From Spirochaetia bacterium (lineage in GTDB: Bacteria > Spirochaetota > Spirochaetia > WTKD01 > G963693115), in assembly GCA_965226055.1 (NCBI GenBank), contig CBDDCA010000006.1, positions 192,001 to 256,000 on the forward strand: a stretch of DNA of 64,000 bases. The letters run 5' to 3'. The notes below the pieces were generated by a model. That model was not told the DNA's origin. It saw nothing but the letters and a program-made list of their open reading frames with translations, and searched no databases. Made by a program: the position numbers and the translations under genes. Shown one piece after another: positions 9,030 through 32,500 of this stretch; the stretch's first letter is position 1, and every line of letters begins with the position of its first letter.

Positions 9030-9047
9030 TAGTTACTATATATTTAC

Positions 9048-9521
9048 ATGACAATAAAAAAGATAGATGATGTACTAGTAGTAATACTGCTTATCAATTT
9101 AACAGTTATCACTTTCTTGCAGGTTCTCTTCCGATTTGTATTTCAAGCGCCTCTTGATTGGTCAGAAGAAGTGTCTCGCTTTACTTTTATCTTTTTAGTA
9201 TATCTCGCTTCTACTATCACTATACGAGATAAAGTAACGATACGTATTGAGTTTATTGATACTTTCTTACAAAAGAGAAAACAGCTAGCATACATACATA
9301 ATATTTTTATCAATGGTATCTGTACCTTGTTTTTATTCTTTATGGCTTATCTGTGTATATCTTTAGTAAAGAACGCTTTTTTTGTAAAACAAGTATCTCC
9401 TGCATTAGGGCTTCCTATGTGGATACTCTATTTTCTCCAAGGAAGTTTGTTTGCATTAAGCGGAATACAGTATAGTATTATTCTTATGTCCACATTACAA
9501 AAAAAATCTACAAAGGCATAA
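9048..9521 (+). CDS. dctQ: TRAP small permease DctQ
   Basis: QVLFRF...WSEEVSRF; 4 TM. Confidence 0.9.
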   Translation: MTIKKIDDVLVVILLINLTVITFLQVLFRFVFQAPLDWSEEVSRFTFIFLVYLASTITIRDKVTIRIEFIDTFLQKRKQLAYIHNIFINGICTLFLFFMAYLCISLVKNAFFVKQVSPALGLPMWILYFLQGSLFALSGIQYSIILMSTLQKKSTKA

Positions 9522-9522
9522 T

Positions 9523-13198: not shown

Positions 13199-13590
13199 TA
13201 AAAAGAATACCTAACAATGCCATCCAGCATAGTACTGCAGGCCCCTATTCGCCTGTGTTAGAAGTAGCGTTTGATACATTAGTATTGATATCAGGACAAG
13301 CCCCCATAGATATGGATGGCACTGTTGTAGGAGCTAGCATAGAAGAACAAACAAGGTTTACTATGGATAACTGCATAAAACAACTCAAAAATGCTCAGTG
13401 TACATTAGACAATGTATTTAAGGTAAACGTGTATCTTACAGATCTTGATCTATGGCCACGTTTTAATGAAGTATACAAAACATACTTCTCTCTTCCATAC
13501 CCCTGTCGTACGGCAGTGCAAGTAGGCTTACTCTACACATTCTTAGTAGAAATAGAAATGTGGGCAGCAAAGAACAATACCAGCACATAA
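13195..13590 (+). CDS. RidA/YjgF family enamine deaminase
   Basis: GPYS, ISGQ, FNEVY..YF, P.RTAV, VEIE. Confidence 0.9.
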   Translation: MIKRIPNNAIQHSTAGPYSPVLEVAFDTLVLISGQAPIDMDGTVVGASIEEQTRFTMDNCIKQLKNAQCTLDNVFKVNVYLTDLDLWPRFNEVYKTYFSLPYPCRTAVQVGLLYTFLVEIEMWAAKNNTST

Positions 13591-14476
13591 AACAATAGAG
13601 CGTGTTTTTCCTTCCTCTCTCTACTTTTTCTGACAATATAAAAGACACATTATCTACTACGTGAAAATCTCCGAAAAGACGATACCACATGGTATATGAG
13701 AGTAAAATTTATTACATCCATAAAAAGCTCAAGGAGGAGAATATAACTTTCAGCATTTTTTATAGTAGAAAGAGGAACTATGAGCTTAACAAATATGGTG
13801 AGCAACTGTGGATTTACACACATTAAAAATAGTGCATACCCTATAAAACATATGGACACTATATGTTTTAATAGTTTTAATTTCTTTATAATACATATAA
13901 ATTGAATAAAACAAATAATAAGAATATCAATAAGTATAGATAAATAGGAATATTGACATGGAAAATGGAATATATATGAAGATAAACCCGATCTTGCTAG
14001 TTTAATAGTACTTAGGGGAAAAACAGGAAGCGTAGCAACAAATAAATTCAATATAACAATCCAGAATAACCCTAGCAACCAATCTTTACCGTGTTCACTA
14101 ACATAATATGAAAAGAACAAACTAAATTTATCTAATGGATTTTTTTCTTTTTTACGATGTTTCTCTAATTCTTTTACATAGTACTGATGTGCTTCTATGC
14201 TATTGCTTTGCTTATAAAACTCATTTTTAATAACACGATATGTCTCTTTATCATCTACTGTTTCTACCTCAGCTCCAAGAAAAAATAAATTTCTTTCTAT
14301 ATGCACTCCATACAGATCTATTTTTTTAAATTTTCTATTCATAAAATAACCATGTTTCTCAAAGCTACAATATGAAAAATCAGCCTTAAGTTCCTCTTCT
14401 TCTTTTTTCTCTTTTTTATCAAAGTACACAACACCCTCAAAAGTAGTATTTTTAAAAATTATCTTATCGTTAAACA

Positions 14477-15557
14477 CACGAGTTCAAGGATTAAATGCGA
14501 CAAAGGAGCAAAAAAAGTAAGAAAAAATAAAAAAAGGAGACACTCTATAATTGTATAAACGAAACAAATTAGGAGGTCTCCTTTATGAGTATACCAAAAA
14601 ACTCATTTCGTCATCTGACAGACAAAGATCGTACTATTATCGCTACGCTCCGTCATGCAAAGTACAGTATCAATGCTATAGCCAAACGCCTCAGTGTCCA
14701 TCGCAGCACTGTCTATCGTGAAATACAACGCAATGGAGGCAAACATGTCTATAATGAAGTCATTGCTCACAGACAGGCAAGAAAACGATGGGATAAGAGC
14801 CATAAAAAACTCTCTATTCCTTCTCATACTATTCGTACCTATATCGTTTTTCACCTTATATTCGATGGCTGGTCGCCTGAACAAATAGCAGGAAGGCTCA
14901 GTATTGATATGCCTCAGTATACTATCAGTCATGAGACAATATATCACTTTATTTATCGTTTTGCTCCTCATTTGACACAGTATCTGCGAAAACAGCACCA
15001 AACACGCAAAAAAAGAAGAGTATCTCGTTCTTTTTCTGTTTCTCGTATCCCTCATCGTGTCTCAGTACACGAACGAGGCGATGTTTCTAATGAATATGGC
15101 CACTGGGAAGTAGATCTTGTTGGCTCTTCTTCAAAAGCTACTGTGCTTGCTTTAGTGGAAAAACATACCCGTTATGTTCTTTTTCATAAGATACCTGACA
15201 AAACTGCTCATACCGTACAGTATGGCATGCTCTTTGCTCTAAGGAACATACCACGCCATTTATGTAACAGTTTCACTTATGATAATGGGAGTGAATTTAT
15301 GCTCCATACTGAAATAAATACACGCCTGAATGCTCGTTCTTATTTTTGTACTCCTTACTGTGCTTGGGAAAAAGGATTAGTCGAACATTCTATTGGATTA
15401 TTACGTCAGTACTTTCCTAAGAAGACTTTGTTTCATAGAGTCAAGCAAAGTGATATACTACAAGTACAAACGCTTATCAATCATAGACCACGAAAATGTC
15501 TTCATTTTTTGACCCCTGCTGAAGCCTTTTCTGTCGCATTTAGTCCTTGAATCCGCA
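14477..15557 (+). mobile_element. IS30-family insertion sequence
   Basis: IRs cgagttcaaggattaaatgcgaca (14479-14502) and tgtcgcatttagtccttgaatccg (15532-15555); ACA (or AACA) target duplication; ends uncertain by 1 bp. Confidence 0.92.
14585..15550 (+). CDS. IS30 family DDE transposase
   Basis: HTH (IAKRLSVHRSTVYREI), WSPEQIAG, GHWEVD, TYDNGSEF, WEKGLVE, NHRPRK. Confidence 0.95.
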   Translation: MSIPKNSFRHLTDKDRTIIATLRHAKYSINAIAKRLSVHRSTVYREIQRNGGKHVYNEVIAHRQARKRWDKSHKKLSIPSHTIRTYIVFHLIFDGWSPEQIAGRLSIDMPQYTISHETIYHFIYRFAPHLTQYLRKQHQTRKKRRVSRSFSVSRIPHRVSVHERGDVSNEYGHWEVDLVGSSSKATVLALVEKHTRYVLFHKIPDKTAHTVQYGMLFALRNIPRHLCNSFTYDNGSEFMLHTEINTRLNARSYFCTPYCAWEKGLVEHSIGLLRQYFPKKTLFHRVKQSDILQVQTLINHRPRKCLHFLTPAEAFSVAFSP

Positions 15558-15899
15558 ACATAGCATATCTAAAATTTGATATTTTTTTAAAAATAACATG
15601 ATCAAAATCAGCATCTTGTTTAAATTTTGACTTTCTAAAAATAGCATTTTCTGCAAAAGAAACACACCGAAAATATACTTTTTCTTTAAAAGTAGCTGCA
15701 GAAAAATCAACAAATCCTTTAAAGGATACCTTTTTATCCCAATTTAAACCAAATTTAGTTTCTTTTTCAAATATAGCTTTACGAAAAACTACCTCTACAA
15801 ATAATTCAACAGCACAAAAATCTACTTCTTTCTTAAAATTAACTTCACTAAAGTCTACTTTTTTCTCAAAAGTAGCTCCATTAAAATTCACTTCCTCTT

Positions 15900-17380
15900 C
15901 AAATTTAGCACTACAAAATTTTGCTTCCTCCCCAAATTTAGCACTACTAAAATCTGCTTTCTCCCCAAAGGTAGTATCACTAAATTTTGCTTCCTTTTTA
16001 AATGTAATATTCCAAAAATTTGCTTTCTCTCCAAAGGTAGTACTACTAAAATCTGCTTCCTTTCCAAATTTAACTTCCCAAAAATTTGCTTCCTTAAAAT
16101 TAGCATTATTAAAACTTACTTTCTTTTTAAATCTAGCAGCTCTAAAATCTGTTTCGTCTCCAAAGGTAACATCACTAAAATCTGTTTCATCTCCAAAGGT
16201 AACATCACTAAAATCTGCTCTCTCCCCAAAGGTAGTATCACTAAATTTTGCTTCCTTTCCAAATCTAGCATTACTAAAATCTGCTTCCTCTCCAAATTCA
16301 GCACTACTAAAATCTACTTCCTCTCCAAAGGTAACACTCCAAAACCTTGCTTCCTTTTCAAATCTAGCATTACTAAAATCTGCTTCCTCTCCAAAGGTAA
16401 CACTCCAAAACCTTGCTTCCTTTTCAAATCTAGCATTACTAAAATCTGCTTCCTCTCCAAAGGTAACACCCCAAAACTTTGCTTCCTTTTCAAATCTAGC
16501 ATTACTAAAATCTGCTTCCTCTCCAAATTCAGCACTACTAAAATCTGCTTCCTCTCCAAAGGTAACACCCCAAAACTTTGCTTCCTTTTCAAATCTAGCA
16601 TTACTAAAATCTGCTTCCTCTCCAAATTCAGCACTACTAAAATCTACTTCCTCTCCAAAGGTAACACTCCAAAACTTTGTTTCCTTTTTAAACTCAGCAC
16701 TACTAAAATCTGCTTCCTCTCCAAATTCAGCACTACTAAAATCTACTTCCTCTCCAAAGGTAACACTCCAAAACTTTGTTTCCTTTTTAAACTCAGCACT
16801 ACTAAAATCTGCTTCCTCTCCAAATTCAGCACTACTAAAATCTACTTCCTCTCCAAAGGTAACACTCCAAAACTTTGTTTCCTTTTTAAACTCAGCACTA
16901 CTAAAATCTGCTTCCTCTCCAAATTCAGCACTACTAAAATCTACTTCCTCTCCAAAGGTAACACTCCAAAACTTTGTTTCCTTTTTAAACTCAGCACTAC
17001 TAAAATCTGCTTCCTCTCCAAATTCAGCACTACTAAAATCTGCTTCCTCTCCAAAGGTAACACCCCAAAACTTTGCTTCCTTTTCAAATCTAGCATTACT
17101 AAAATCTGCTTCCTCTCCAAATTCAGCACTACTAAAATCTACTTCCTCTCCAAAGGTAACACCCCAAAACTTTGCTTCCTTTTCAAATCTAGCATTACTA
17201 AAATCTGCTTCCTCTCCAAAGGTAACACTCCAAAACCTTGCTTCCTTTTCAAATCTAGCATTACTAAAATCTGCTTCCTCTCCAAAGGTAACACTCCAAA
17301 ACTTTGCTTCCTTTTCAAACTCAGCACTACTAAAATTTACTTCCTTTTCAAATCTAGGACTACTAAAATCTGCTTCTCCT
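15900..17380 (-). repeat. Intragenic tandem 30-bp repeats (10-aa units) with higher-order 90-bp blocks
   Basis: Units such as FGEEADFSSA, FEKEAKFWSV, FGEEVDFSSA; identical 90-bp blocks at about 16650-17010; boundaries approximate. Confidence 0.9.
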
Positions 17381-17644
17381 AAAAAATCACAATATGAGAA
17401 ATTATATATTTTTTCTTCTTTCTTATATAATTCACATAGTTCCGTAATGGCATTTGTATGTATATTATTGAGTACTTTTGCCCTTAGATCACCTTTTTCT
17501 GTTTCATACCACTGTATACATTTTCGAATATGCGGATATTTTTTCCATATATCCTTAAGTTCCTCGTTGTTGGATAGCTCTGCAAGTTCTTCTTGTGTTT
17601 TTTCTTCCATCACATAATTATTATAGTTAATATATAAATATTTT

Positions 17645-17684
17645 GTTGTAGGTGAGCTGAAATTCTTTCTTTATATGATTTGAC
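17645..17684 (+). repeat. Degenerate orphan CRISPR repeat R1
   Basis: GTTGTAGGTGAGCTGAAATTCTTT[CTTT]ATATGATTTGAC; 30/36 to the array repeat plus a 4-nt insertion. Confidence 0.85.
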
Positions 17685-17745
17685 TTAACTTTAATATCAA
17701 GTAATGTAAAAAGCTACATAAAATATATATAGCACATAAGAATAT

Positions 17746-18228
17746 TTATGGATAATTACATATATCTATATTATGATATGTAAAAAAATCGGAAACAACA
17801 GTAGTAGAAGAATCATTATCAAAAAAATCATCCAATTCAGCTATTTTTTCATTATTCAACTTTTTAATCGCTTCTCGTTCATCAATTACAGCAAGTTTTT
17901 CCTCTAACCTTTGATTATGATAATCAGTTATATCATGTGTATCTTCTGCTTTCTTTCTCAAGTATTTAATCTCAATTTCCTCAAGTTTTTTATTTTTCTG
18001 TTCTCTTATTTTTCTTTGTTCAGAAAACCACAAAGAAAGAAAACTATAAAGGGCATCCTCTTTCAATTCCTCTAATGCGTAATTTTCAGTTTCTAAATAA
18101 TCATCTAATAAATATCGAACAGTAACACAATCTTGTAAATATCTATCAAAAAAAGATTCTTGAGATTCAATATTTTGCAAGAAAAATAATAATATACATA
18201 ATTGTATCAATGCAACTTTTCTTATCAT
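17746..18228 (-). CDS. Hypothetical secreted helical protein
   Basis: Signal peptide, charged coiled-coil, AGGAG RBS. Confidence 0.7.
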   Translation of the reverse strand: MIRKVALIQLCILLFFLQNIESQESFFDRYLQDCVTVRYLLDDYLETENYALEELKEDALYSFLSLWFSEQRKIREQKNKKLEEIEIKYLRKKAEDTHDITDYHNQRLEEKLAVIDEREAIKKLNNEKIAELDDFFDNDSSTTVVSDFFTYHNIDICNYP

Positions 18229-18267
18229 ACCTACTCCTACTTTCTAATATAGCACTTATTGGTTTTT

Positions 18268-18303
18268 GTTATAGATAAACTGAAGTTCTTTATATGATAT
18301 AAT
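18268..18303 (+). repeat. Degenerate orphan CRISPR repeat R2
   Basis: GTTATAGATAAACTGAAGTTCTTTATATGATATAAT; 30/36, all differences A/G transitions. Confidence 0.9.
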
Positions 18304-18392
18304 CAATTATGATGACGAGTGAATAAAGCTACTTAAAATATTTACAGCTACTTTTTAGCAGTCATAATTAAATAGAGAACAGGAGAATTTTT

Positions 18393-19208
18393 ATGGACTA
18401 TACGCTATTTTTAAGTAAAAATGATACTGATCGTACATTACATGAGTTTGAGGGATTAGTGAAAGGTATTCTATTAGATAATGAACTAAATGAAAAGGAA
18501 GTGATAGCACTGAGAACATGGATTGATAACAATACACACTTTCTTTCTAAGAGTAATAAGGGTGTAACAAAAAACATTTTTACTGATTTATACTCCGCTT
18601 TTTATAGTAAATCAGGTGAGATTTTAATTGATGATATATTTATGTGTTTGCGTAATATCTCCTTCAAATCAATCTACTATAAAGAAGATACTACTAATAT
18701 ACAAATTTTAATAGGTTTGCTACGTGGTATTGTTGCCGATAGAGTTATAAATCAAAAAGAAATAAATAATCTTATTGTATGGTTAAAAGATCATTCTAGT
18801 TTACAGTCTATGTATCCATATAACCTATTAGTGAAGTTACTCCAAATAGGAACAGTTGATGAAGGAATTATTACAGATAATGAAGGTAAGTTGATGGAGC
18901 TTTGTATTGGTTTTGAAAGTGATTATGCTAATCAATCTGTTGTTAATAATGACATAGAAGTAATTTTTGCAAACAAACATTTTTGCTTTAGTGGCTATTC
19001 TGACAGTTATTCCAAGAAAGAAGTGCAAGAAAAAATAGAGAGTTTGAGTGGCTTTTATCATAAGAGTATGTGCAAAAAAGTTGACTATCTCATTTTAGGA
19101 GATAAAAAAAGTGAAGGCTGGGCTTATGGGAGCTATGGAAGAAAAGTAGAAAGCGCTCTAAATAATGGTATTCCCGTAGTTTCAGAATCTGTGTTATCAG
19201 TAACATAA
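18393..19208 (+). CDS. BRCT-domain protein with N-terminal TerB-like helical repeats
   Basis: Two G..KGI..D...N..E...L..W units; C-terminal FCFSG...VDYLILG...W....YGRKVE.A BRCT signature. Confidence 0.8.
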   Translation: MDYTLFLSKNDTDRTLHEFEGLVKGILLDNELNEKEVIALRTWIDNNTHFLSKSNKGVTKNIFTDLYSAFYSKSGEILIDDIFMCLRNISFKSIYYKEDTTNIQILIGLLRGIVADRVINQKEINNLIVWLKDHSSLQSMYPYNLLVKLLQIGTVDEGIITDNEGKLMELCIGFESDYANQSVVNNDIEVIFANKHFCFSGYSDSYSKKEVQEKIESLSGFYHKSMCKKVDYLILGDKKSEGWAYGSYGRKVESALNNGIPVVSESVLSVT

Positions 19209-19233
19209 GAATTACACACAAATATGTAATAAT

Positions 19234-19273
19234 ATTATAGATAAGCTAAAACTCTTTCTTTACATGATATAAT
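19234..19273 (+). repeat. Degenerate orphan CRISPR repeat R3
   Basis: ATTATAGATAAGCTAAAACTCTTT[CTTT]ACATGATATAAT; 28/36 plus the same 4-nt insertion as R1. Confidence 0.8.
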
Positions 19274-19313
19274 TGATTGTATCTCTAGTAATGGGTAAAT
19301 ACCCAATCAATAA

Positions 19314-20132
19314 TTAGAATTTTTCAACAAAATAAGACACCGTATTCTCTATTAAAGTTTGAGAGTGCGTCTTATCATCAGTTAATACATTGAATATATG
19401 ATCTGCATCTTCCATTTGTATAAATGATGTGCTTTTTGCTTTACTAGCATGAGATAAAAAGTCAGAGTCATCATACTGTAAAAAATCGTTAGTTCCACGA
19501 ATAACAAGTAAGTCGCCATCATATGTATCTATCACTGAGTATGAGTTCCATCCAATTAGTCCATATATAAATTGTCGCGATATTCTTTGTTCTGACCATG
19601 TAACCTCGTCATAAAAATCATTATTTGATAAAGAACGCAGATTAACATTGTCGTCATAATTTTTTGAAATTAGCCTAAATGAGCCATCATATGTTGGAGA
19701 CCAAAGTACAGTGACATCTACTTTTAGTGTAGTAATTACATAGGACGCTGTTAGTCCTCCTAAGGAAAATCCAATAACACCAATTTTCTTTGTTGGATAT
19801 TCTTTTTTTACTTTATTATATGCTTCCACTGACTCCTGTAGTCTACTTTCCATTGTTGATGTTACATAGTATTTGTTTCGTTCACCTTCGCCACTAAAAT
19901 TAAATCGATACGATGCTATATTTTTCTCCAAAAGTTCATTGGCAGTATCCTTAAATAAGTTTCCGACTTCATCATAATGACTTTGAAATCCATGAAGCAT
20001 AATTACAATAGAGTCAAATGTATCAGGACGAACAAACACTCCATTCTTATTGTCTTCTTTATTATCCTCTGTTCTTGAAGCACACGAAATTAACACTATG
20101 CTTATGCACATACATATAAATAATTTTTTCAT
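19314..20132 (-). CDS. Alpha/beta hydrolase lipoprotein
   Basis: Lipobox LISC; HGF, GFSLGG nucleophile elbow, GTND, ADHIF. Confidence 0.88.
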   Translation of the reverse strand: MKKLFICMCISIVLISCASRTEDNKEDNKNGVFVRPDTFDSIVIMLHGFQSHYDEVGNLFKDTANELLEKNIASYRFNFSGEGERNKYYVTSTMESRLQESVEAYNKVKKEYPTKKIGVIGFSLGGLTASYVITTLKVDVTVLWSPTYDGSFRLISKNYDDNVNLRSLSNNDFYDEVTWSEQRISRQFIYGLIGWNSYSVIDTYDGDLLVIRGTNDFLQYDDSDFLSHASKAKSTSFIQMEDADHIFNVLTDDKTHSQTLIENTVSYFVEKF

Positions 20133-20328
20133 AAAAATCTCCTCATTGTAATAATGGTTTTGGCATTGATAAAAAAGAACAGATAAATAAAATGGACTAA
20201 ACCTGCCTCCTTTATTTAATTATACAAACTTTATACATGTTTCGCTTTGCTTCCTAGTATTTCTTTCTAAAGTATCTTTTTTTAGTTATCTATGCCCACC
20301 CCTAAAAATTACTACAGGAGTTTTATAT

Positions 20329-21291
20329 TTGTACGATATAAAGTATATGCCTAATGTTGTCATAGAAGTACAGCATGATAACAATCATATCTCTCATAGA
20401 CGTGGTTTTTTAGAAATTGCTCATAATCGTACTACTGTAAAAGCAGTTGCTTATGATGAGATTGCTGCTCTTATTATGAGTTCTCATGCATCTACTATTT
20501 CCAATAGGGTATTACAGACATTAGCAGAACAAGGGATTCCTGTTATTATAGCAGGGAAAAATTTTCAACCGCTTTCTATAGCATTACCGCTCATTGGCAA
20601 TCATGATATTAGTACTCGCTTACGATATCAAATACAGGCAAGTGAACCTCTAAAGAAACAGGTATGGGCAAATATTGTACGTCAAAAGATTAAGAATCAG
20701 GCCACTGCACTTGCATACTTACAGAAAGATGAAGTTGCTATAAAACAAATACAAAGGTTAGCAACAAAGGTACTCAGTGGCGATACCACAAATATAGAGG
20801 CACAAGCTGCGAGAAAGTATTTTTCTGTATTATTTGGCAAAGAGTTTAAGCGAGATAGAAACTTGAATGATATTAATGGCATGCTTAATTATGGGTATAT
20901 GGTAATACGCAGTGCCGTAGCACGTGCTATCACAGGCTGTGGATTGCATCCAAGCTTAGGAATACACCATAAATCATGGACTGATACGATGCAGTTAGCA
21001 GATGATTTTATAGAGCCTTTTAGACCTATTATTGATGTATTGGTGGCATTGCTGATAAAAAAACATCATATAAAAGAGGTCACTCCTCAAGTGAAACGGG
21101 TACTATGTGCAAGCATAGATCTCCCAGTACAAGCCCCTCGAGGTGTTACTACAATTACTAAAAGCATACAGTATTTTTTACAATCTTTTGCTACAATACT
21201 GACACATAAAGGGGGTAGCCTTTTTAAGACAACATTTCCTTTACTAAAAGATATACAAAAATATGCCATACAGCAGTATACAGAGAAGTAG
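20329..21291 (+). CDS. cas1: Type II CRISPR integrase Cas1
   Basis: EAQAARKYF, NGMLNYGY, LGIHH, LADDFIEPFRP; AGGAG 8 nt before TTG (alternative ATG at 20347). Confidence 0.96.
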   Translation: MYDIKYMPNVVIEVQHDNNHISHRRGFLEIAHNRTTVKAVAYDEIAALIMSSHASTISNRVLQTLAEQGIPVIIAGKNFQPLSIALPLIGNHDISTRLRYQIQASEPLKKQVWANIVRQKIKNQATALAYLQKDEVAIKQIQRLATKVLSGDTTNIEAQAARKYFSVLFGKEFKRDRNLNDINGMLNYGYMVIRSAVARAITGCGLHPSLGIHHKSWTDTMQLADDFIEPFRPIIDVLVALLIKKHHIKEVTPQVKRVLCASIDLPVQAPRGVTTITKSIQYFLQSFATILTHKGGSLFKTTFPLLKDIQKYAIQQYTEK

Positions 21292-21292
21292 T

Positions 21293-21619
21293 ATGCACAG
21301 CAAATATAAGATTATGTGGATCTATGTAATGTTTGATTTACCAGTTATTACCAAAAAGGAAAAAAAAGAGGCTGCTCAGTTTAAGAATGCCTTACTTGAT
21401 TTAAGTTTTGAAATGGTGCAGTACTCAGTATATACACGCATATGTGGAAGTACAAGAAAAGTAGAAGTCGTGAGTAAGAAAATAGAGCATATATTTCCTC
21501 ATCAGGGGAAAGTAGATATTTTAGCAATAACAGATAAACAACATTCTGATATTATCTGTTTACGAGGAGAGGATAAAGAACCTCTACCACAAAAAAATCA
21601 GCAATTTTTACTATTTTAA
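21293..21619 (+). CDS. cas2: Cas2
   Basis: MWIYVMFDLP, F.MVQYSVY.R, ITDKQ. Confidence 0.95.
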   Translation: MHSKYKIMWIYVMFDLPVITKKEKKEAAQFKNALLDLSFEMVQYSVYTRICGSTRKVEVVSKKIEHIFPHQGKVDILAITDKQHSDIICLRGEDKEPLPQKNQQFLLF

Positions 21620-21644
21620 GTGATTTTGTATTTTTGCTTTCTTT

Positions 21645-21683
21645 AAAAAAAGCCCCAAATTCCTATACAATAAGAATTTGGGG
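21645..21683 (-). terminator. Intrinsic terminator in the leader, facing the minus-strand pre-crRNA
   Basis: ccccaaattc...gaatttgggg stem with A-tract at 21645-21651 (U-tract on minus). Confidence 0.75.
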
Positions 21684-21689
21684 GAAGAT

Positions 21690-24600
21690 ATTATATCATA
21701 TAAAGAATTTCAGCCCATCCACAACTGAATTATCATTTTCAAAAACTGTTTTTAAATTATATCATATAAAGAATTTCAGCCCATCCACAACAGCCAATGA
21801 TTACAGATAATAAAAGAAAAGATTATATCATATAAAGAATTTCAGCCCATCCACAACTAGAAGATACTAGTATTTCTTGTAGAAAATTATTATATCATAT
21901 AAAGAATTTCAGCCCATCCACAACTAAATCAACTCTAAATCATATACTCTATTAATTATATCATATAAAGAATTTCAGCCCATCCACAACAAAAGAAATA
22001 TTAAAAAAAAAACATAAAAAATTATATCATATAAAGAATTTCAGCCCATCCACAACAAAAATTTTACTAAAAGAAGTCATTGTAGGATTATATCATATAA
22101 AGAATTTCAGCCCATCCACAACAACCCATATGAACGGCTAGGAATTATACGCATTATATCATATAAAGAATTTCAGCCCATCCACAACCACTTTGGAGTC
22201 TCACCATCAGACGCACGAATTATATCATATAAAGAATTTCAGCCCATCCACAACAAATATGAAGTTTCATTGCAATACATAGAAATTATATCATATAAAG
22301 AATTTCAGCCCATCCACAACTGGCGACGATTACTTAGATGAAAAAGTCTATTATATCATATAAAGAATTTCAGCCCATCCACAACAATGATGGATTATAA
22401 ATATAGCATTGAAATTATATCATATAAAGAATTTCAGCCCATCCACAACCCCGAGAGTGTTCTTGTTAATAGCACGATGATTATATCATATAAAGAATTT
22501 CAGCCCATCCACAACAAAAAGCTAGTTCTTTTATTTCAGCGTTCGATTATATCATATAAAGAATTTCAGCCCATCCACAACATGGTTTCGAGCCTATAAC
22601 ATGATATACAAATTATATCATATAAAGAATTTCAGCCCATCCACAACACTTGCAGCAACGCAACGCGAAGTTAGACGATTATATCATATAAAGAATTTCA
22701 GCCCATCCACAACGATACGAAGATCAGACATACGAGGATGCACATTATATCATATAAAGAATTTCAGCCCATCCACAACTAACTAGTCCAGATCAAGTTA
22801 ATTTATCTAATTATATCATATAAAGAATTTCAGCCCATCCACAACTATAATGTGCATGGCATCGATCATGCCAGAATTATATCATATAAAGAATTTCAGC
22901 CCATCCACAACTGCCTCAAGTAGCAAACCCCGAAGGAGTGTATTATATCATATAAAGAATTTCAGCCCATCCACAACGAAGTAATCTTTATGCCAGTTAC
23001 GACGGAGATTATATCATATAAAGAATTTCAGCCCATCCACAACGTATAAAAGCAGCATTTAATAATCAATTTAATTATATCATATAAAGAATTTCAGCCC
23101 ATCCACAACTATAAGGCTAGTTGGTGACAGATTTAGGATATTATATCATATAAAGAATTTCAGCCCATCCACAACTACCAGGTATAGAAGGAAAATAATA
23201 TGGTCATTATATCATATAAAGAATTTCAGCCCATCCACAACAAAAGGCACAAGTGCCACAGTACTGAGCGAATTATATCATATAAAGAATTTCAGCCCAT
23301 CCACAACAAGAAAGCGTTCATTGTGTACTCTTCCGATATTATATCATATAAAGAATTTCAGCCCATCCACAACTATTCCCATTTATCGCCTTTTTTTACA
23401 ATCATTATATCATATAAAGAATTTCAGCCCATCCACAACTAAAAACGCGGGAGTTAACCCGTTAATGTTATTATATCATATAAAGAATTTCAGCCCATCC
23501 ACAACCTCCCGGCTTATGGCATACCACAATTATAATTATATCATATAAAGAATTTCAGCCCATCCACAACGACAGCAACAACAGACCGCCTACCTGTGAA
23601 TTATATCATATAAAGAATTTCAGCCCATCCACAACGTGCTTGACACATCAGATGAAGTGGAAGTAATTATATCATATAAAGAATTTCAGCCCATCCACAA
23701 CGTCAGCCGACAGCAATTACATCGGTAAATAATTATATCATATAAAGAATTTCAGCCCATCCACAACATATTTGATCAGTGGACACAATTTATTACAATT
23801 ATATCATATAAAGAATTTCAGCCCATCCACAACAAGGATAGACACATGTACGAAATGGAGCAAATTATATCATATAAAGAATTTCAGCCCATCCACAACT
23901 AGTAAGAACTCAGCCACTCGTAAAGCCAGATTATATCATATAAAGAATTTCAGCCCATCCACAACGAAAAAGTGCCAACTGATAAAGCATTAGATATTAT
24001 ATCATATAAAGAATTTCAGCCCATCCACAACGATCGCGGTTGGCTTAGAAAAACTAAAGAAATTATATCATATAAAGAATTTCAGCCCATCCACAACATA
24101 ACGAAAAGTTAGTTACAAAGAGATACGATTATATCATATAAAGAATTTCAGCCCATCCACAACAGAGTATATCGATTGCGATCATTCGGATCTATTATAT
24201 CATATAAAGAATTTCAGCCCATCCACAACTACAAAAGCAGATATTCAAGCGAGAAGACAATTATATCATATAAAGAATTTCAGCCCATCCACAACTGCGA
24301 TAGGGGAAGACCATACATCGTACGTATTATATCATATAAAGAATTTCAGCCCATCCACAACCATGATGGCAGGGGCTTTTGGCTTTGAGGGATTATATCA
24401 TATAAAGAATTTCAGCCCATCCACAACTACAAGATAGGCTAACGCTTTCTCTGTTTTATTATATCATATAAAGAATTTCAGCCCATCCACAACACAGGAG
24501 TTATTAAAGAGGCAGATCGCATTATTATATCATATAAAGAATTTCAGCCCATCCACAACAATTTTTGGCATATGGCGCGCACATTCAACATTATATCATA

Positions 24601-26735
24601 TAAAGAATTTCAGCCCATCCACAACACGTTATATCGAATACCTCAATGCCTCTTTATTATATCATATAAAGAATTTCAGCCCATCCACAACAACATTCCA
24701 ACCGCAGACAAACGAGCAGTAATTATATCATATAAAGAATTTCAGCCCATCCACAACTGGATAGCTGAAGTCCATATATGATATACTATTATATCATATA
24801 AAGAATTTCAGCCCATCCACAACATGTGGTTTCAGGGTAAGAAAATCAATCCAATTATATCATATAAAGAATTTCAGCCCATCCACAACACAACATGCAA
24901 AATTTGTACAAGCCCTAGCATTATATCATATAAAGAATTTCAGCCCATCCACAACATCTGAACAGCCAGTTATGAAGTCAGAACTATTATATCATATAAA
25001 GAATTTCAGCCCATCCACAACATTTTTGAGCAGTGGACGCAATTCATTACAATTATATCATATAAAGAATTTCAGCCCATCCACAACTATAGTTTGCAAC
25101 GGAAAGCAAGTACTAGAATTATATCATATAAAGAATTTCAGCCCATCCACAACCGTATCGGTATCTCTGTAGAAGTCATTAAAATTATATCATATAAAGA
25201 ATTTCAGCCCATCCACAACTAACATTGATTACGCACAGAAAAATTACATATTATATCATATAAAGAATTTCAGCCCATCCACAACAAGCTGTCCAATTTC
25301 TTCGTCAAACATGCCATTATATCATATAAAGAATTTCAGCCCATCCACAACCAAATTCTGAAGATTCTACAGGACTTCAGAATTATATCATATAAAGAAT
25401 TTCAGCCCATCCACAACCTAAGTTCATTATTTTTTATTGAATCATTTATTATATCATATAAAGAATTTCAGCCCATCCACAACAACTCATAGGAGAGGGC
25501 GATAATATTACAGATTATATCATATAAAGAATTTCAGCCCATCCACAACATTGGGACAAACCCATACCAGATATAAATATTATATCATATAAAGAATTTC
25601 AGCCCATCCACAACAAAGACATATTGTGGAATTATTTCGGCTTGATTATATCATATAAAGAATTTCAGCCCATCCACAACATGCCACAGGTGGCAAACCC
25701 TGAAGGAGTTATTATATCATATAAAGAATTTCAGCCCATCCACAACATTTTTTGTTTCGATATTATAGCTCCGTAAATTATATCATATAAAGAATTTCAG
25801 CCCATCCACAACCTGCTTACGGAGTACCAAAGTTATAGGAGTATTATATCATATAAAGAATTTCAGCCCATCCACAACCGCCTAATGTTTTCCCATATTT
25901 TATGGGTTATTATATCATATAAAGAATTTCAGCCCATCCACAACATTAAAAGTTATTTTATTATCTTGTATAGTATTATATCATATAAAGAATTTCAGCC
26001 CATCCACAACATAGTCCATGTAGGCAACAAAGTCAGAGCAATTATATCATATAAAGAATTTCAGCCCATCCACAACAGAGGCAATGGCAGACATATAAAA
26101 AGAGAATTATATCATATAAAGAATTTCAGCCCATCCACAACTAATATTTATTATTTTATTAAAGTCAGTGAATTATATCATATAAAGAATTTCAGCCCAT
26201 CCACAACATCACATGCAAAGTTTGTCCAAGCCCTCGCATTATATCATATAAAGAATTTCAGCCCATCCACAACTGGTTGGTTTCGCAAAACCAAGGAAGA
26301 TTAATTATATCATATAAAGAATTTCAGCCCATCCACAACAGGTATGCTTATACCTGTTGGAATCTGGGAATTATATCATATAAAGAATTTCAGCCCATCC
26401 ACAACTATAATCTTATTTATCATTGGAGCAATCCGATTATATCATATAAAGAATTTCAGCCCATCCACAACCAGCTTTCATACACACATACTTTGTACCT
26501 TATTATATCATATAAAGAATTTCAGCCCATCCACAACTAATACTAAACTTATTTGCTGCAAAGTCGTATTATATCATATAAAGAATTTCAGCCCATCCAC
26601 AACTACCATGTAATAGGTGTCGATTTTGCAGAAATTATATCATATAAAGAATTTCAGCCCATCCATAACTTAATGACTGCCAGAAATGACGAGATCGCAA
26701 TTATATCATATAAAGAATTTCAATCTATCCACAAC
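21690..26735 (-). CRISPR. Type II-C CRISPR array, 77 repeats / 76 spacers (28-31 bp, mostly 30)
   Basis: 36-bp repeat GTTGTGGATGGGCTGAAATTCTTTATATGATATAAT on minus; last two repeats next to cas9 are degenerate; strand inferred from tracr complementarity, embedded TGnTATAAT and the leader terminator. Confidence 0.98.
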
Positions 26736-26740
26736 GACAA

Positions 26741-29700
26741 TTACTTTTTTGCAAAGGAAATTATGCCAGTAGGACTCATATGTACTTTTTGTAATTTATA
26801 CCCCTGTAATTTAGCGAGAGAAGTATATCGTTCCCTTACTCTTACTTTTTGATCATCTTTTTTTTCTTCTTTTATTTCTTTTGCACGTGCAGCATCATTG
26901 GCTTCATGCAACTCTGCAAGATCCAGATCTATACTCCCTGACATCTTACACACTCGATATAGCTTTCCTTCGGGAGCATGAGGAGGGTAGAGCATGACAG
27001 TATCATTATTGTGTAAGCGCATAAGCATTTTTTGAGTAGGGTATTTCTTTTTCCACTGAGGCACATAGTTTTTTTTATTTGCATGATATCTCGTTATCAT
27101 TTCTCCTTGCCATTTTCCTTCTTCATCTTCGTATATTTCATATGCCCAGTTTCCTGCTGAAATATACCCTTTATATGCTTTTCCTTGTTTGTCTTTTTGA
27201 ATGCCTATTACTGTCTCTTTTGTAATGATTTTTACTTTTCTTATCCCAGTTTCTTGAAAGCATTGCTCTAGGGCTTCTTTTATATTTCCATTATGCCTAT
27301 TACAATAATCTTGTAGCAATTTTCTTGTTTTAGGGCTTGCTATTTTCTTAATCATTGGTACAGTTAAATCCAAAATATTCTTGTGAATTCCCACATACCG
27401 AGCTTTCTTTGTATCCTGTGTACTCGTATCAGATCCTGGTACGCGGAAGCTATAGGCTTGCTCCTCAAGTAACTGCCCTGTCTTTCCTCTGTCACTTTTA
27501 TGTGATACTATTATTTTCTGCATACTCCGTTCAACATCTTCACGAAATCCTTCCCATGGAGCAGGAATAGCCTCTCTATGCTTTTGACTAAACAAATGTA
27601 TATCTGCATATTCTGCAGCACTTGCCCATTGCGATACTTTATTCAGTATTCCTCTCTCAATACATCCTACCACAACAGCATCCACTGCATGATGTCTATG
27701 ATCGTCTCTATTCTTTTTGCCATCATCCCCTAGCACTTTATTTAGTCCCCACATATGTCGTAACCAAGCACTGAGTTTTCCTGGTGAAACCCATATATCC
27801 ACAGGATGAGATTTTTCTTTCAAGCTCTCAAGATAATATTGAGCTACCTTTGCAAAATACTGAGATGAATGTAATTGATGTGCTAAAAATCCTTCTTCTT
27901 GTTCAAAACGTTTCATAGCATCACTTTTAAAACGCCAGCTTTTATTAGAAGGAAGCAGATTTGCATTGTTGTCTATGCTTTTCCATTTGTTAGTAGTTCC
28001 CCATGCTTCATGGGGAGTTTTGTTCATCTTTTCCTTATTTGCTCCTGATTTACAGAGTACTTTATTAGCAAAGCTATTATCAAGGGTACGAGAAAAAGGC
28101 AAAATATGATCGATATGCGTAGCATGAGAAAATACATCATCTTTTGTTATCTTCTCATTTGAATAAGGGCAACGTCTATCATTAGGATTATCTGATAATT
28201 CTTTCCATAATCTATATTTTTCTCTATCACTACGAGAAGGAGATACTATGCCATAGTCATCTTCTAATTCTTTGTTTATTTTTTCATTTTTCGCTTGGTT
28301 ATCTCTTAGTTTTTTATCATAATCACTTTTGGTTTGTTTTCCCATAGAAAAATCACGCAATAATTCTAGCACTATTTGTTGGGGCTTGTCATATCTGCGT
28401 ATAAGCTCATTTACTACTTTTTGTAGCTGATTAAGTCCTACATGTACGGTTGGATTTGTTATCTTACCATATTGAGCTTCCTGTCTTTTTCGTCCTTTTA
28501 TTTTCTCATCAATGTCTTTTGCTTCTTTCTTGCCTATGCAGTATCGAGAGAGTATTTCCCCATAGTATGGCAACACACTATATCCCTTAGCACGTGTTCC
28601 TCGATGATCTCCGTAGCCAGCTTGCTTTACTGCCTCATCATAGGTGATAATATCTTTTTGTAGACACGCTACTATCTTGGTGAGTGCTGTCTTTGATAAG
28701 TTACAGTACCCTTTTGGCAACTTCACAATCTTAGATATGCATTCATCTGCTGTTTCTTTGTCAAGATTCCACTCACTAACACACAATACTTCTCGTAATT
28801 TTTCATCCGAATTTTCAGTATCTAAAAGGAGTGCTATAAAATTATTTTTTCTCTCCATATCCCAGTCTTGCCATATTTTTTTCCCTATAATTTTTGATAC
28901 CACTGCAGTAGTTCCATTATGCTTAAAATTTTTAGTGTCTACTCGTTCAAAATTGATAGATACTGTCCCTTCTAAATGATACTCTTTCTTTATATAGGTA
29001 GAAACATCCTTTGGCTTAGCACTGCTTGATTTATTCTCCAGATAGTTTTTTAGCTTATCTCGTAATAGTATATCTACAGGAAACTCTTCTCTATTATGAA
29101 ATATGCGTATATTGTGTATATCTTGTAGTATTCTAAATTCTTGTGCAATAGGCATTGCCCATGCACAACGATGCTCATCTTCAAAAATACACAGGCCTGG
29201 TGTTTGAGGCTTTAGTTTACGCTGATAAAATATTACCTCTTTTATTTTCTCGTATGCTTCATTGGAGAACAACTGGTGGGTATGAGATAGCTCCTTTTGT
29301 TGCTTCCATATCGTATCAAATTCTTTCTCATACATCTCACGTGAAAAATACAGCTCATAGTCAGTTTTTCCGGGAGTTAGCGATTTTGCCCTCACTGCCT
29401 TTTTCTGCTTAAAGCGACTGTAGAGATATTCCCCTAATGTTCGCATATTATTTTTATGCAGCTCTTTTTCTAACTCTTTTATGACAGGCTTGATTTTCCC
29501 TGTTTCATCATCTCCATCAGATAGTCTATTACTCTTAAAGCCTCTCCGCTGATTTATATGAAATATCGCTCGCCCAAATTCATGTGCAGAAATAGCTTCA
29601 TCCAATGCCTTTGCTCGTAGCTCATAGGGGTTTTTCTGCTGTAGTGCAAGACGCTCCTCCTTATCTGCAGGGAAAAACCCAAAATGAGTGAGCTGAGAGA

Positions 29701-29920
29701 GAATATGCTCCCGTCTTTGTAAGTATCTGTCTCTCCGTCTTCTTGCTGAACGGGCAGTTTGCCGTTCCTGATTGAGTGGTGCATAGGTCTTATCTGCTCT
29801 GCTATTTGAAAAAATACGCACTCCTGTGCCTTTTAGAGCAACTGGCGATCCTTCTTGTACTTCAAGGACTGCCCATCCTATCGAATTAGTGCCTAGATCA
29901 AAACTAAAACGAATACTCAT
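26741..29920 (-). CDS. cas9: Compact type II-C Cas9 (about 1059 aa from ATG 29920)
   Basis: RuvC-I FDLGTNSIGW, bridge helix RRRRDR, RRGFKSNR, NPTV, HNH IDHILP..NKVL, RuvC-III HHAVDA; GGAGGT RBS. Confidence 0.97.
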   Translation of the reverse strand: MSIRFSFDLGTNSIGWAVLEVQEGSPVALKGTGVRIFSNSRADKTYAPLNQERQTARSARRRRDRYLQRREHILSQLTHFGFFPADKEERLALQQKNPYELRAKALDEAISAHEFGRAIFHINQRRGFKSNRLSDGDDETGKIKPVIKELEKELHKNNMRTLGEYLYSRFKQKKAVRAKSLTPGKTDYELYFSREMYEKEFDTIWKQQKELSHTHQLFSNEAYEKIKEVIFYQRKLKPQTPGLCIFEDEHRCAWAMPIAQEFRILQDIHNIRIFHNREEFPVDILLRDKLKNYLENKSSSAKPKDVSTYIKKEYHLEGTVSINFERVDTKNFKHNGTTAVVSKIIGKKIWQDWDMERKNNFIALLLDTENSDEKLREVLCVSEWNLDKETADECISKIVKLPKGYCNLSKTALTKIVACLQKDIITYDEAVKQAGYGDHRGTRAKGYSVLPYYGEILSRYCIGKKEAKDIDEKIKGRKRQEAQYGKITNPTVHVGLNQLQKVVNELIRRYDKPQQIVLELLRDFSMGKQTKSDYDKKLRDNQAKNEKINKELEDDYGIVSPSRSDREKYRLWKELSDNPNDRRCPYSNEKITKDDVFSHATHIDHILPFSRTLDNSFANKVLCKSGANKEKMNKTPHEAWGTTNKWKSIDNNANLLPSNKSWRFKSDAMKRFEQEEGFLAHQLHSSQYFAKVAQYYLESLKEKSHPVDIWVSPGKLSAWLRHMWGLNKVLGDDGKKNRDDHRHHAVDAVVVGCIERGILNKVSQWASAAEYADIHLFSQKHREAIPAPWEGFREDVERSMQKIIVSHKSDRGKTGQLLEEQAYSFRVPGSDTSTQDTKKARYVGIHKNILDLTVPMIKKIASPKTRKLLQDYCNRHNGNIKEALEQCFQETGIRKVKIITKETVIGIQKDKQGKAYKGYISAGNWAYEIYEDEEGKWQGEMITRYHANKKNYVPQWKKKYPTQKMLMRLHNNDTVMLYPPHAPEGKLYRVCKMSGSIDLDLAELHEANDAARAKEIKEEKKDDQKVRVRERYTSLAKLQGYKLQKVHMSPTGIISFAKK

Positions 29921-29937
29921 AAATACCTCCAATGGAC

Positions 29938-29966
29938 TTGACATATATGTATATATCCTATATTAT
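29938..29966 (+). promoter_or_regulatory. Putative tracrRNA sigma70 promoter
   Basis: TTGACA-N17-TATTAT. Confidence 0.65.
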
Positions 29967-29987
29967 TTAAGTATAGGATTTAATTCT

Positions 29988-30082
29988 ATTATATCATATA
30001 AAGGATTTCAGCAAAAAATCCATTAACAAGTGCCTTCGGGTGCACTAATCAGCCCATCACTTCGGTGATGGGTTTTGTTTTT
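29988..30082 (+). ncRNA. tracrRNA
   Basis: Anti-repeat attatatcatataaaggatttcagc (24/25) plus atccattaac; hairpins agtgccttcgggtgcact and cccatcacttcggtgatggg followed by a T-tract. Confidence 0.92.
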
Positions 30083-31054: not shown

Positions 31055-31124
31055 TTATATACCACCTGTAGTAACAGTATACTATATCTTTTAGAATAGC
31101 GTTACTCTCAAGCTATTTTTACGT

Positions 31125-32495: not shown

Positions 32496-32500
32496 ATGCT

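What the first reader, a model, noticed from the sequence alone, without database searches (positions are those of the whole stretch)
17645..20132. Gene-sized 'spacers': degenerate CRISPR repeats punctuate a gene cassette row next to cas1
Seen: three diverged copies of the 36-bp repeat, R1 17645-17684, R2 18268-18303 and R3 19234-19273. All share one orientation, opposite to the main array, and there is exactly one per intergenic gap. Between them lie 583 bp carrying a secreted hypothetical gene and 930 bp carrying a BRCT-domain gene; a hydrolase lipoprotein follows before cas1. R1 and R3 share a CTTT insertion and R2 and R3 share TTATAGATAA, so they form their own lineage rather than chance matches. 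Inference: an integron-like array in which CRISPR repeats delimit whole genes, captured by Cas1-Cas2 or by repeat-targeted recombination. Alternatives are scaRNA/CreR-like regulatory RNAs for Cas9, or a decayed array end later invaded by genes.
Basis: partly seen in the sequence, partly recalled or inferred. Interest (0 to 1): 0.9.

Follow-up and report, generated by a model that had tools for sequence, protein, structure and literature searches.

The report
Decayed CRISPR repeats bracket variable genes
Three worn-out copies of this bacterium's CRISPR repeat sit between ordinary-looking genes next to cas1; they look like leftovers of the old end of the CRISPR array, and related strains have lost the two genes lying between the outer copies by recombination within those copies.

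Summary
R1 (17645-17684), R2 (18268-18303) and R3 (19234-19273) are diverged copies of the 36-bp type II-C repeat. With the tracrRNA anti-repeat they are the four best non-array matches in the 2.25-Mb genome.

A same-family relative, G005, has the usual order cas9-cas1-cas2-array. This genome and its sister species G001 differ by one inversion of the cas1-cas2-array block, and an IS1595 remnant sits at the junction next to cas1. Undoing the inversion puts R1-R3 beyond the old, degenerate end of the array, in the array's orientation.

Contigs of two related strains (runs X7, X8) lack the 1589-bp segment orf160-R2-BRCT. Their joints lie inside R1/R3, at different positions. So gene content does vary at the repeats, but the pattern fits ordinary homologous recombination between direct repeats.

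The copies drift about as fast as the surrounding intergenic DNA. I found no guide-like targets, and no RNA data are available.

Best reading (0.6): relic solitary repeats that act as recombination substrates. Integron-like or Cas1-Cas2 capture is not shown (0.12). This is a new variant of a known kind, of moderate interest.

The parts
17645..17684 (+). R1, a decayed CRISPR repeat copy: 6 mismatches, a 4-nt insertion, and a diverged 3' end. It lies 31 nt upstream of the pentapeptide gene's start on the other strand.
   Evidence: 1 of 40 positions differs in G001
17710..17733 (+). 24-nt motif shared with the R2 flank (21 of 24 identical)
   Evidence: only these two sites in the genome at up to 3 mismatches; 0 of 500 shuffles reach the score
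17746..18228 (-). orf160: 160 aa with a signal-peptide-like N-terminus followed by a charged, probably helical stretch. No family; 25.5% GC.
   Evidence: pN/pS 0.11 against G001; absent from X7 and X8 contigs
18268..18303 (+). R2, the best-preserved orphan copy (30 of 36). It keeps the repeat's 3' TGATATAAT (extended -10-like) pointing towards the BRCT gene.
   Evidence: predicted duplex with the tracrRNA -29.4 kcal/mol against -40.6 for the true repeat
18325..18348 (+). Second copy of the 24-nt flank motif. It overlaps a predicted -35 (TTTACA at 18341) for the BRCT gene.
18393..19208 (+). BRCT-domain protein, 271 aa. It belongs to a widespread family whose longer members carry a DEDDh exonuclease domain, and it matches phrog_3989.
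   Evidence: phrog_3989 4.9e-42; 723 representatives at E<=1e-10; absent from X7 and X8 contigs
19234..19273 (+). R3, a decayed repeat copy: 7 mismatches and the same 4-nt insertion as R1, with the 3' TGATATAAT kept
17680..19268 (.). 1589-bp segment (equally 17645-19233) that is present in G000 and G001 and absent in the X7 and X8 strains. It is bounded by R1 and R3.
   Evidence: tables 5, 5c and 8
19314..20132 (-). alpha/beta-hydrolase with a lipoprotein-type signal (..LISC), present in all four strain forms
20157..20305 (-). Internally deleted remnant of an IS1595-family element: both ends are present with degenerate terminal inverted repeats. It lies at the proposed inversion junction next to cas1.
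20329..21291 (+). cas1 (type II, NMENI class)
21263..21619 (+). cas2
21620..21689 (.). Leader-side flank of the array, with 1 of 70 positions differing from G001
21690..26735 (-). CRISPR array: 77 repeats and 76 spacers of 28-31 bp. The crRNA sense is on the - strand, and the degenerate repeats are at the cas9 end (26634-, 26700-).
26741..29944 (-). cas9 (1067 aa). Its stop codon lies 5 nt from the last repeat.
29988..30082 (+). tracrRNA candidate: an anti-repeat (24 of 25, then a 7-nt bulge and further pairing), two hairpins and a U run
   Evidence: z -3.7; -40.6 kcal/mol with the repeat

Best explanation
R1-R3 are solitary, decaying copies of the type II-C CRISPR repeat that descend from the old (trailer) end of the array.

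An inversion of the cas1-cas2-array block, probably between inverted IS1595 copies, moved the living array away from them and flipped it. They now lie upstream of cas1 in the opposite orientation. Three low-GC accessory genes (orf160, a BRCT protein, a lipoprotein hydrolase) sit between or beside them. How those genes got there is not known.

Today the copies have no demonstrated RNA function. What they demonstrably do is serve as direct repeats for homologous recombination, the process that deletes spacers inside arrays. In related strains this has removed the 1589-bp orf160-R2-BRCT segment.

Shown: the identity of the copies, the rearrangement relative to a relative, and the strain polymorphism with joints inside the copies. 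Inferred: the trailer-end origin, the role of the IS, and that the polymorphism is a loss rather than a gain.
For: 1. The copies derive from the repeat and are unique to this locus.

2. G005 (same family; Cas9 about 44-47% identical, Cas1 43%, Cas2 53%) has tracr / cas9-cas1-cas2 / array in the canonical order, and no other repeat match below E 0.1 on its 33-kb contig apart from the tracrRNA anti-repeat. 13 of 14 other class II-C loci with a detected array have the anti-repeat upstream of cas9, as here. One inversion of cas1-cas2-array converts that order into the one seen in G000 and G001. It places R1-R3 beyond the degenerate end of the array in the array's orientation.

3. The junction next to cas1 is an IS1595 remnant. 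In G001 the other junction (array end / cas9 stop) carries an end of the same IS family in the opposite orientation.

4. As in the degenerate terminal repeats of both arrays, the changes in R1-R3 cluster in the trailer-side part of the repeat, positions 1-12.

5. Between G000 and G001 the copies differ at 9 of 116 positions, against 30 of 285 for the rest of the three intergenic gaps. There is no extra constraint.

6. X7 and X8 contigs lack the segment, with joints at repeat position about 35 (X7) and about 1-3 (X8). Different crossover points fit homologous recombination.

7. A rough three-way count in 20486-21689 gives branch lengths of 17 (G000), 12 (X8) and 30 (G001). Under a clock G001 is the outgroup and the three-copy form is ancestral.

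8. A second spirochaete II-C locus (G208) has degenerate trailer repeats interrupted by a 529-bp insertion.
Against: - Undoing the inversion gives three consecutive inter-repeat intervals that each hold exactly one gene. Independent random insertions would rarely produce that.
- R1 and R2 share about 50 nt of right-hand flank, including a genome-unique 24-nt motif. A decayed array with unrelated spacers does not predict this.
- R2 and R3 keep a perfect TGnTATAAT in both species.
- Synonymous divergence between G000 and G001 is lower in orf160 and BRCT (12.5 of 248 sites) than in hydrolase plus cas1 (45.5 of 381). This could mean the segment has a separate, younger history.
- No outgroup carries the site, so loss versus gain rests on a clock assumption and on a truncated difference table.
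- X8's repeat sequence was not seen directly. Only 5 of its 14 differences in 19235-19619 were listed.
- G000 has no IS at the cas9 junction, so the G001 copy there may be a later insertion.
Confidence: 0.6

Rival explanations
1. Repeat-directed gene capture. The CRISPR repeat acts as an attachment-like site at which single-gene cassettes, each carrying one repeat copy, are inserted and excised. The agent would be Cas1-Cas2, another site-specific activity, or Campbell-type recombination of repeat-bearing circles.
For: - There is one gene per inter-repeat interval, and three in a row once the inversion is undone.
- A presence/absence polymorphism is bounded by the copies.
- R1 and R2, the left junctions of the two variable genes, share a right-hand flank motif that R3 lacks. 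Two related cassettes integrated one after the other would look like this.
- The cargo genes have low GC, 25.5-32% against 35% for the genome.
- The cargo genes have lower synonymous divergence than their neighbours.
Against: - The joints in X7 and X8 lie at opposite ends of the repeat.
- R1 and R3 differ at 10 of 40 positions, while the strains differ by 2-4%.
- The gene directions are mixed.
- None of the 10 neighbouring proteins scanned is a tyrosine or serine recombinase; the only transposase is IS30-like.
- All 76 + 191 real spacers are 28-31 bp.
- The site is on the trailer side, not at the leader where Cas1-Cas2 integrates.
- The intergenic parts inside the segment are not less diverged than those outside.
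- No alternative cassette was seen in the 4 strain forms.
Confidence: 0.12
2. Functional solitary repeat RNAs or promoters. Transcripts carrying R1-R3 would pair with the tracrRNA and load Cas9 as crRNA-like regulators of the neighbouring genes (like scaRNA, tracr-L, or the crlRNAs of CRISPR-supervised cargo), or they would titrate Cas9. Alternatively, the repeat's built-in -10 element drives the BRCT gene.
For: - R2 and R3 keep TGnTATAAT in both species, and R2 points at the BRCT gene 90 nt downstream.
- The predicted duplex of R2 with the tracrRNA is -29.4 kcal/mol against -6.9 for shuffles; R1 gives -23.5 and R3 -16.2.
- Solitary repeats paired with variable cargo genes are known in type I-C and I-D loci.
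Against: - The copies show no extra conservation: 9 of 116 against 30 of 285 positions differ.
- No second repeat lies at spacer distance.
- The 12-16-nt seeds taken upstream and downstream of each copy gave only 11-of-12 AT-rich matches in 13000-31500, and none at 14 or 16 nt.
- There is no Rfam hit.
- X7 and X8 do without R2 and the two genes.
- The PAM is unknown, so target prediction is weak.
Confidence: 0.15
3. Remnant of a mobile element that carried solitary repeat units (viral mini-array or RNA anti-CRISPR type) and recombined with the array.
For: The BRCT protein matches a phage protein family (phrog_3989). The cargo has low GC. Phage solitary repeats are known (search listing and start of abstract only).
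Against: There are no phage structural or integrase genes in 13000-32000. Neither the repeat core nor the flank motif occurs in the viral contig collection (0 and 0 matches). The copies lie in the chromosome of two species at the same place.
Confidence: 0.05

Closest known systems
Standalone repeat-like sequences (SRUs) in CRISPR-cas loci (Shmakov et al. 2023, bioRxiv 10.1101/2023.03.03.530964; abstract and passages read)
   Same: Degraded repeat copies lie outside the array within a CRISPR-cas locus and are conserved in a close relative. The paper says that in type II most SRUs seem to come from spurious repeat duplication, and that SRUs may contribute to recombination. It also describes cargo regions next to mini-arrays as hot spots of gene shuffling, with loci that keep the mini-array but lack the cargo.
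   Different: Here there are three copies in a type II-C locus, each separated by one whole gene, together with a documented strain-level deletion whose joints lie inside the copies. The paper's cargo examples are type I-D mini-arrays with predicted promoter targets. Its supplementary files could not be opened, so a similar type II case may be listed there.
CRISPR-supervised cargo (CRISIS; crlRNA) in type I-C loci (Shu et al. 2024, bioRxiv 10.1101/2024.12.27.630466; abstract and section 5 read)
   Same: Non-cas genes lie inside or beside a cas locus, each accompanied by a solitary repeat unit.
   Different: In that system the SRU has a guide part that matches the cargo promoter next to a PAM, and it represses that promoter. 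I found no such match here. The effector here is Cas9, and the cargo matched no defence family in PADLOC.
Spacer loss by recombination between CRISPR repeats (general knowledge, recalled)
   Same: A deletion of everything between two direct repeat copies, leaving one hybrid copy. This is what the X7 and X8 contigs show.
   Different: The deleted unit is 1589 bp with two genes and an inner copy, not 66 bp, and the recombining copies are only 30 of 40 identical.
Integron cassette arrays
   Same: A row of single genes is separated by a recurring short site, with presence/absence variation at the sites.
   Different: There is no integrase. The genes are not co-oriented. The joints are not at a fixed point. 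The recurring site is a CRISPR repeat.
Tn7-like transposons that target CRISPR repeats (Mob DNA 2025, PMC11837452; search listing and start of abstract only)
   Same: Foreign genes come to lie within CRISPR arrays at the repeats.
   Different: There are no Tn7 genes or ends here, and the inserted units are single genes.

Membership tests
Standalone CRISPR repeat unit (SRU) | [quoted passage not shown] | tested here: met
   R2 matches 30 of 36. R1 and R3 align over the full length with a 4-nt insertion. With the tracrRNA anti-repeat they are the top non-array hits in the genome.
Standalone CRISPR repeat unit (SRU) | Present at the same place in closely related loci | tested here: met
   All three are present in G001 and in the X5 contig. 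X7 and X8 keep one copy.
Regulatory mini-array / crRNA-like RNA (scaRNA, CreR, crlRNA) | Repeat-like sequence(s) flanking a spacer-length guide | tested here: not met
   No second repeat-like match lies within spacer distance of any copy. The profile search lists only R1-R3 and the tracr anti-repeat in 13000-32000 above 7 bits.
Regulatory mini-array / crRNA-like RNA (scaRNA, CreR, crlRNA) | Guide partly complementary to a promoter in or near the locus, next to a PAM | tested here: inconclusive
   Seeds of 12 nt gave only 11-of-12 AT-rich matches, and seeds of 14 and 16 nt gave none, in 13000-31500. The PAM could not be derived.
Regulatory mini-array / crRNA-like RNA (scaRNA, CreR, crlRNA) | Expressed as a small RNA bound by the effector | not testable with these tools
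   It needs small-RNA sequencing and Cas9 co-precipitation.
tracrRNA | Anti-repeat followed by 3' hairpins and a terminator | tested here: not met
   Read on the - strand, R1 and R2 run straight into start codons 31 and 39 nt away, and R3 runs into the end of the BRCT gene. The true candidate is at 29988-30082. R1-R3 also lack its 7-nt bulge.
Integron | Adjacent integron integrase (tyrosine recombinase) | tested here: not met
   Pfam scan of 10 proteins in 13650-31054 found none. The only transposase is an IS30-like DDE enzyme.
Integron | Co-oriented cassettes, each ending in a recombination site, with crossover at a fixed point | tested here: not met
   The gene directions are -, +, -. The joints fall at repeat position about 35 in X7 and about 1-3 in X8.
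Product of Cas1-Cas2 spacer integration | An insert of ruler-defined length between two identical repeats at the leader end | tested here: not met
   The inserts are 583 and 930 bp, against 28-31 bp for 267 real spacers. R1 and R3 differ at 10 of 40 positions. The location is on the trailer side, away from the leader.
Type II-C CRISPR-Cas locus (the host system) | cas9, cas1 and cas2 only, a tracrRNA, and a 36-bp repeat read against the cas1-cas2 direction | tested here: met
   No csn2 or cas4 was found among the ORFs scanned. That the -10-like TGATATAAT in the repeat acts as a promoter, as in Neisseria II-C, is recalled knowledge and was not tested.

The most novel reading that the evidence does not exclude
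CRISPR repeats at the old end of a type II-C array act as portable attachment-like sites. Single-gene cassettes, each carrying one repeat copy plus a short shared flank, are gained, exchanged between lineages and lost there. The trailer of an array would then work as a small gene-cassette platform. The one-gene-per-interval layout, the R1/R2 shared flank motif, the repeat-bounded strain polymorphism and the lower synonymous divergence of the cargo are all compatible with this.
Probability: 0.15. Interest if true: 0.8.

Novelty: new variant of a known kind. Interest (0 to 1): 0.45.

Why it matters
Solitary repeat copies in CRISPR loci are usually dismissed in type II systems as debris. Here they can be tied to two concrete genome events. 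One is an inversion that split off the array's old end. The other is a two-gene deletion in related strains whose joints lie inside the copies.

This gives a natural example of CRISPR repeats shaping gene content around a cas locus by plain recombination. It also gives a defined site at which the bolder idea, gene cassettes moving in and out at CRISPR repeats, can be tested by sampling more strains.

Tried and rejected
**Chance matches:** rejected.

**Extra tracrRNAs:** rejected. The copies have no hairpin or terminator tail and lack the tracr-specific 7-nt bulge. The real candidate is at 29988-30082.

**Further, weaker copies or mini-array partners:** none found in the genome, in the 36 kb of G001, or on the G005 contig.

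**A very decayed repeat at 18333-18368, one period after R2:** not detectable by the profile, so dropped.

**Rfam on 13000-33000 at E<=1:** 0 matches.

**Guide-target search:** nothing beyond AT-rich near-matches.

**PAM:** spacers matched only own-genome repeats, with no consistent flank.

**Relatives of Cas1:** apart from G001, only 35-39% identical hits in genome contigs (3 loci) and metagenome contigs (1 locus). No further carriers of the locus could be compared.

**Viral contigs:** 0 matches to the repeat core and 0 to the flank motif.

**Cargo function:**
- orf160 has no family. Word-based protein search found only the G001 copy, and the atlas gave low scores.
- PADLOC found nothing for the cargo.
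- The BRCT protein's 60%-identical homologue was not found among the 61 relatives searched.

**Toxin-antitoxin guess for the small ORFs in the G208 insertion:** no family support, so dropped.

**Recent transfer of the whole segment between G000 and G001:** synonymous divergence of the two genes is low, but the intergenic parts inside the segment are not, and the best low-divergence tract (18614-19184) does not end at the repeats. Left unexplained.

**Expression:** no RNA holder was listed among the 15 runs returned.

**Parts without contig cover in X3, X7 and X8:** not used as evidence. Only joints carried by contigs were used.

**Not done:** no structure prediction and no complex prediction.

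**Literature:** searches for genes between CRISPR repeats, long or gene-sized spacers, orphan or solitary repeats turned up no description of this arrangement in type II.
Full report
**Observation.** The window carries a complete type II-C CRISPR-Cas locus:
- cas1 at 20329-21291 (+) and cas2 at 21263-21619 (+);
- an array of 77 repeats and 76 spacers at 21690-26735;
- cas9 at 26741-29944 (-);
- upstream of cas9 and divergent from it, a tracrRNA candidate at 29988-30082 (+), made of an anti-repeat, two hairpins and a U run (fold z-score -3.7).

The repeat in crRNA sense reads GTTGTGGATGGGCTGAAATTCTTTATATGATATAAT and lies on the - strand. It ends in TGATATAAT, an extended -10-like word. That such words drive crRNA transcription in Neisseria-type II-C arrays is recalled knowledge, not tested here. 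The degenerate repeats sit at the cas9 end of the array, so the end next to cas2 is the young end.

A search of the whole 2.25-Mb genome with the consensus ranked R2, the tracr anti-repeat, R1 and R3 as the four best of 6860 non-array rows. Chance is excluded. No further copy exists in the genome (that profile included R1-R3).

**Neighbours.** From left to right:
- an IS30-like transposase gene;
- a pentapeptide-repeat gene (-);
- R1;
- orf160 (-), signal-peptide-like, with no family;
- R2;
- a BRCT-domain gene (+);
- R3;
- a lipoprotein alpha/beta-hydrolase (-);
- a 196-bp gap, then cas1.

The BRCT protein belongs to a large family (723 representatives at E<=1e-10). Six of the eight longer members I scanned carry a DEDDh exonuclease domain, and the protein matches phrog_3989. 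The three genes have 25.5-32% GC against 35% for the genome. orf160 and BRCT are under purifying selection between the two species, with pN/pS of 0.11 and 0.13.

**Why the orientation is opposite.**
- The sister species G001, whose record title calls it a Spirochaetia MAG, has the same layout at 96% identity.
- The same-family genome G005 has a related system (Cas9 about 44-47% identical, Cas1 43%, Cas2 53%) in the canonical order. The anti-repeat lies upstream of cas9, then come cas9-cas1-cas2, then the array read against the cas genes. Apart from the anti-repeat, no repeat match outside its array has E below 0.1.
- I fetched 20 further class II-C loci, of which 14 had a detectable array. 13 of those 14 have the anti-repeat upstream of cas9.
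- One inversion of the cas1-cas2-array block turns the canonical order into the one seen here. Undoing it places R1-R3 (and the hydrolase) beyond the old, degenerate end of the array, in the array's own orientation.
- The gap next to cas1 (20157-20305) is an internally deleted IS1595-family element. A full 700-bp copy with a 209-aa DDE_Tnp_IS1595 ORF lies elsewhere on contig C6.
- In G001 the other junction, between the array's last repeat and the cas9 stop, carries an end of the same IS family in the opposite orientation. That is what recombination between inverted IS copies would leave.
- G000 has only 5 nt at that junction, so the IS link is suggestive, not proven.

**Strain variation.** Contigs of four public runs were laid on 17380-21689.
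- X3 equals G000.
- X5 is G001-like and has all three copies.
- X7 (a 31-kb contig) and X8 are close to each other and lack the segment between R1 and R3.
- X8 joins 17645 to 19235, skipping 1589 bp.
- X7 joins 17679 to 19306 with 36 letters between. By eye, 29 of those 36 match 19269-19304, which is the end of R3 plus its flank.

Several points bear on the mechanism.
- The joints lie at opposite ends of the repeat: X7's single copy is R1-like up to position 35, while X8's aligns as R3 from position 2. This argues for homologous recombination at variable points, possibly twice independently, rather than a site-specific reaction.
- R1 and R3 differ at 10 of 40 positions, whereas the strains differ by 2-4%. 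The copies are therefore not a recent target duplication.
- A rough three-way count in 20486-21689 has 47 differences between G000 and G001, 29 between G000 and X8, and 17 listed as shared (truncated table). This gives branches of 17, 30 and 12. Under a clock G001 is the outgroup and the three-copy form is ancestral, which makes the polymorphism a loss.

**Tests for function.**
- Between G000 and G001 the copies differ at 9 of 116 positions, against 30 of 285 for the rest of the three gaps. There is no extra constraint, although R2 and R3 keep TGnTATAAT in both species.
- If transcribed, R2 could still pair well with the tracrRNA: -29.4 kcal/mol against -40.6 for the true repeat, -23.5 for R1 and -16.2 for R3.
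- No promoter-directed guide could be found.
- No second repeat lies at spacer distance, and there is no Rfam family.

**What plain decay does not explain.**
- After undoing the inversion, three consecutive inter-repeat intervals hold one gene each.
- R1 and R2 share about 50 nt of right-hand flank, with a 24-nt motif found nowhere else in the genome. R3, whose right flank is kept in the strains that lack the segment, does not have it.
- Synonymous divergence of the two variable genes is 12.5 of 248 sites, against 45.5 of 381 for hydrolase plus cas1. However, the intergenic parts inside the segment are not less diverged.

These points fit cassettes that carry a repeat copy and integrate by recombination with a chromosomal copy, and they keep that reading alive at low probability.

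A partial parallel exists in G208. Six degenerate trailer-end repeats there are interrupted by a 529-bp insertion, which is flanked by duplicated repeat-plus-spacer units. None of the other 14 loci compared (13 class loci with arrays plus G005) shows repeat copies separated by whole genes.

**Comparison with what is known.** Shmakov et al. [quoted passage not shown] They note that in type II most seem to be spurious duplications, that such units may promote recombination, and that cargo regions next to mini-arrays in type I-D are hot spots of gene shuffling. Shu et al. 2024 (abstract and section 5 read) show solitary repeat units that repress adjacent cargo defence genes in type I-C. The present case is the same kind of object in a type II-C locus. 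It has an unusual one-gene-per-interval layout and direct evidence that the copies mediate a gene-content change. It fails the tests for integron, tracrRNA, mini-array and Cas1-Cas2 product. My four literature searches found no description of this arrangement.

**Verdict.** Most likely (0.6) these are relic trailer-end repeats, stranded by an inversion, that now act only as recombination substrates. Regulatory use (0.15) and repeat-directed cassette capture (0.12) remain open. This is a new variant of a known kind; interest 0.45.

Noticed in passing
window 23242-23271 (spacer 24); window 49077-49106; G000:C4:929-958: One spacer of the array matches about 30 places in the organism's own genome, one of them perfectly. 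The copy in the window lies inside a 1571-aa DUF285 + fibronectin-III surface-protein gene (45980-50695, -). A spacer of the sister species (spacer 104 in G001's array) hits the same gene family about 1.2 kb away. This is a possible self-targeting spacer against a multi-copy surface-protein family, or against a phage that carries a homologue.
   Followed up: partly
window 20157-20305: The gap between the hydrolase gene and cas1 is a miniature, internally deleted IS1595-family element. Full copies of about 700 bp with a 209-aa transposase ORF occur elsewhere, for example G000:C6:375060-375760. There are 11 terminal-repeat matches in the genome at up to 2 mismatches.
   Followed up: yes
G001 (L011+L012 joined, positions 26275-28704): In the sister species, 2.4 kb lie between the last repeat and cas9. 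This stretch holds a 359-aa transposase gene, 94% identical to window 36721-37940, and the right end of an IS1595-family copy. The terminal repeat of that copy supplies the last codons and the stop of cas9.
   Followed up: partly
window 21690-26735 and the G001 array: The two sister species share the repeat but none of their spacers (76 and 191 spacers, 0 shared at up to 4 mismatches). The arrays have turned over completely since the species split and are very long, which suggests active acquisition.
   Followed up: yes
L052 (G208) 8659-9522: Another spirochaete II-C locus has six degenerate repeats beyond its trailer end, with repeated short spacers and a 529-bp insertion (8879-9406). The insertion is flanked by duplicated repeat-plus-spacer units. 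The small ORFs inside it match no family.
   Followed up: partly
window 17746-19208 against G001: Synonymous divergence of orf160 (0.046) and BRCT (0.053) is less than half that of the genes around them (0.107-0.181). The intergenic DNA between them is not less diverged. This is unexplained.
   Followed up: partly
window 15813-17376: The pentapeptide-repeat gene holds a 33/66/99-bp tandem repeat of about 1.5 kb. Its 5' end is only 86% identical to G001, and X7 and X8 replace 9 bp near 17518-17528 with 81 other letters. It is a fast-changing repeat protein next to R1.
   Followed up: no
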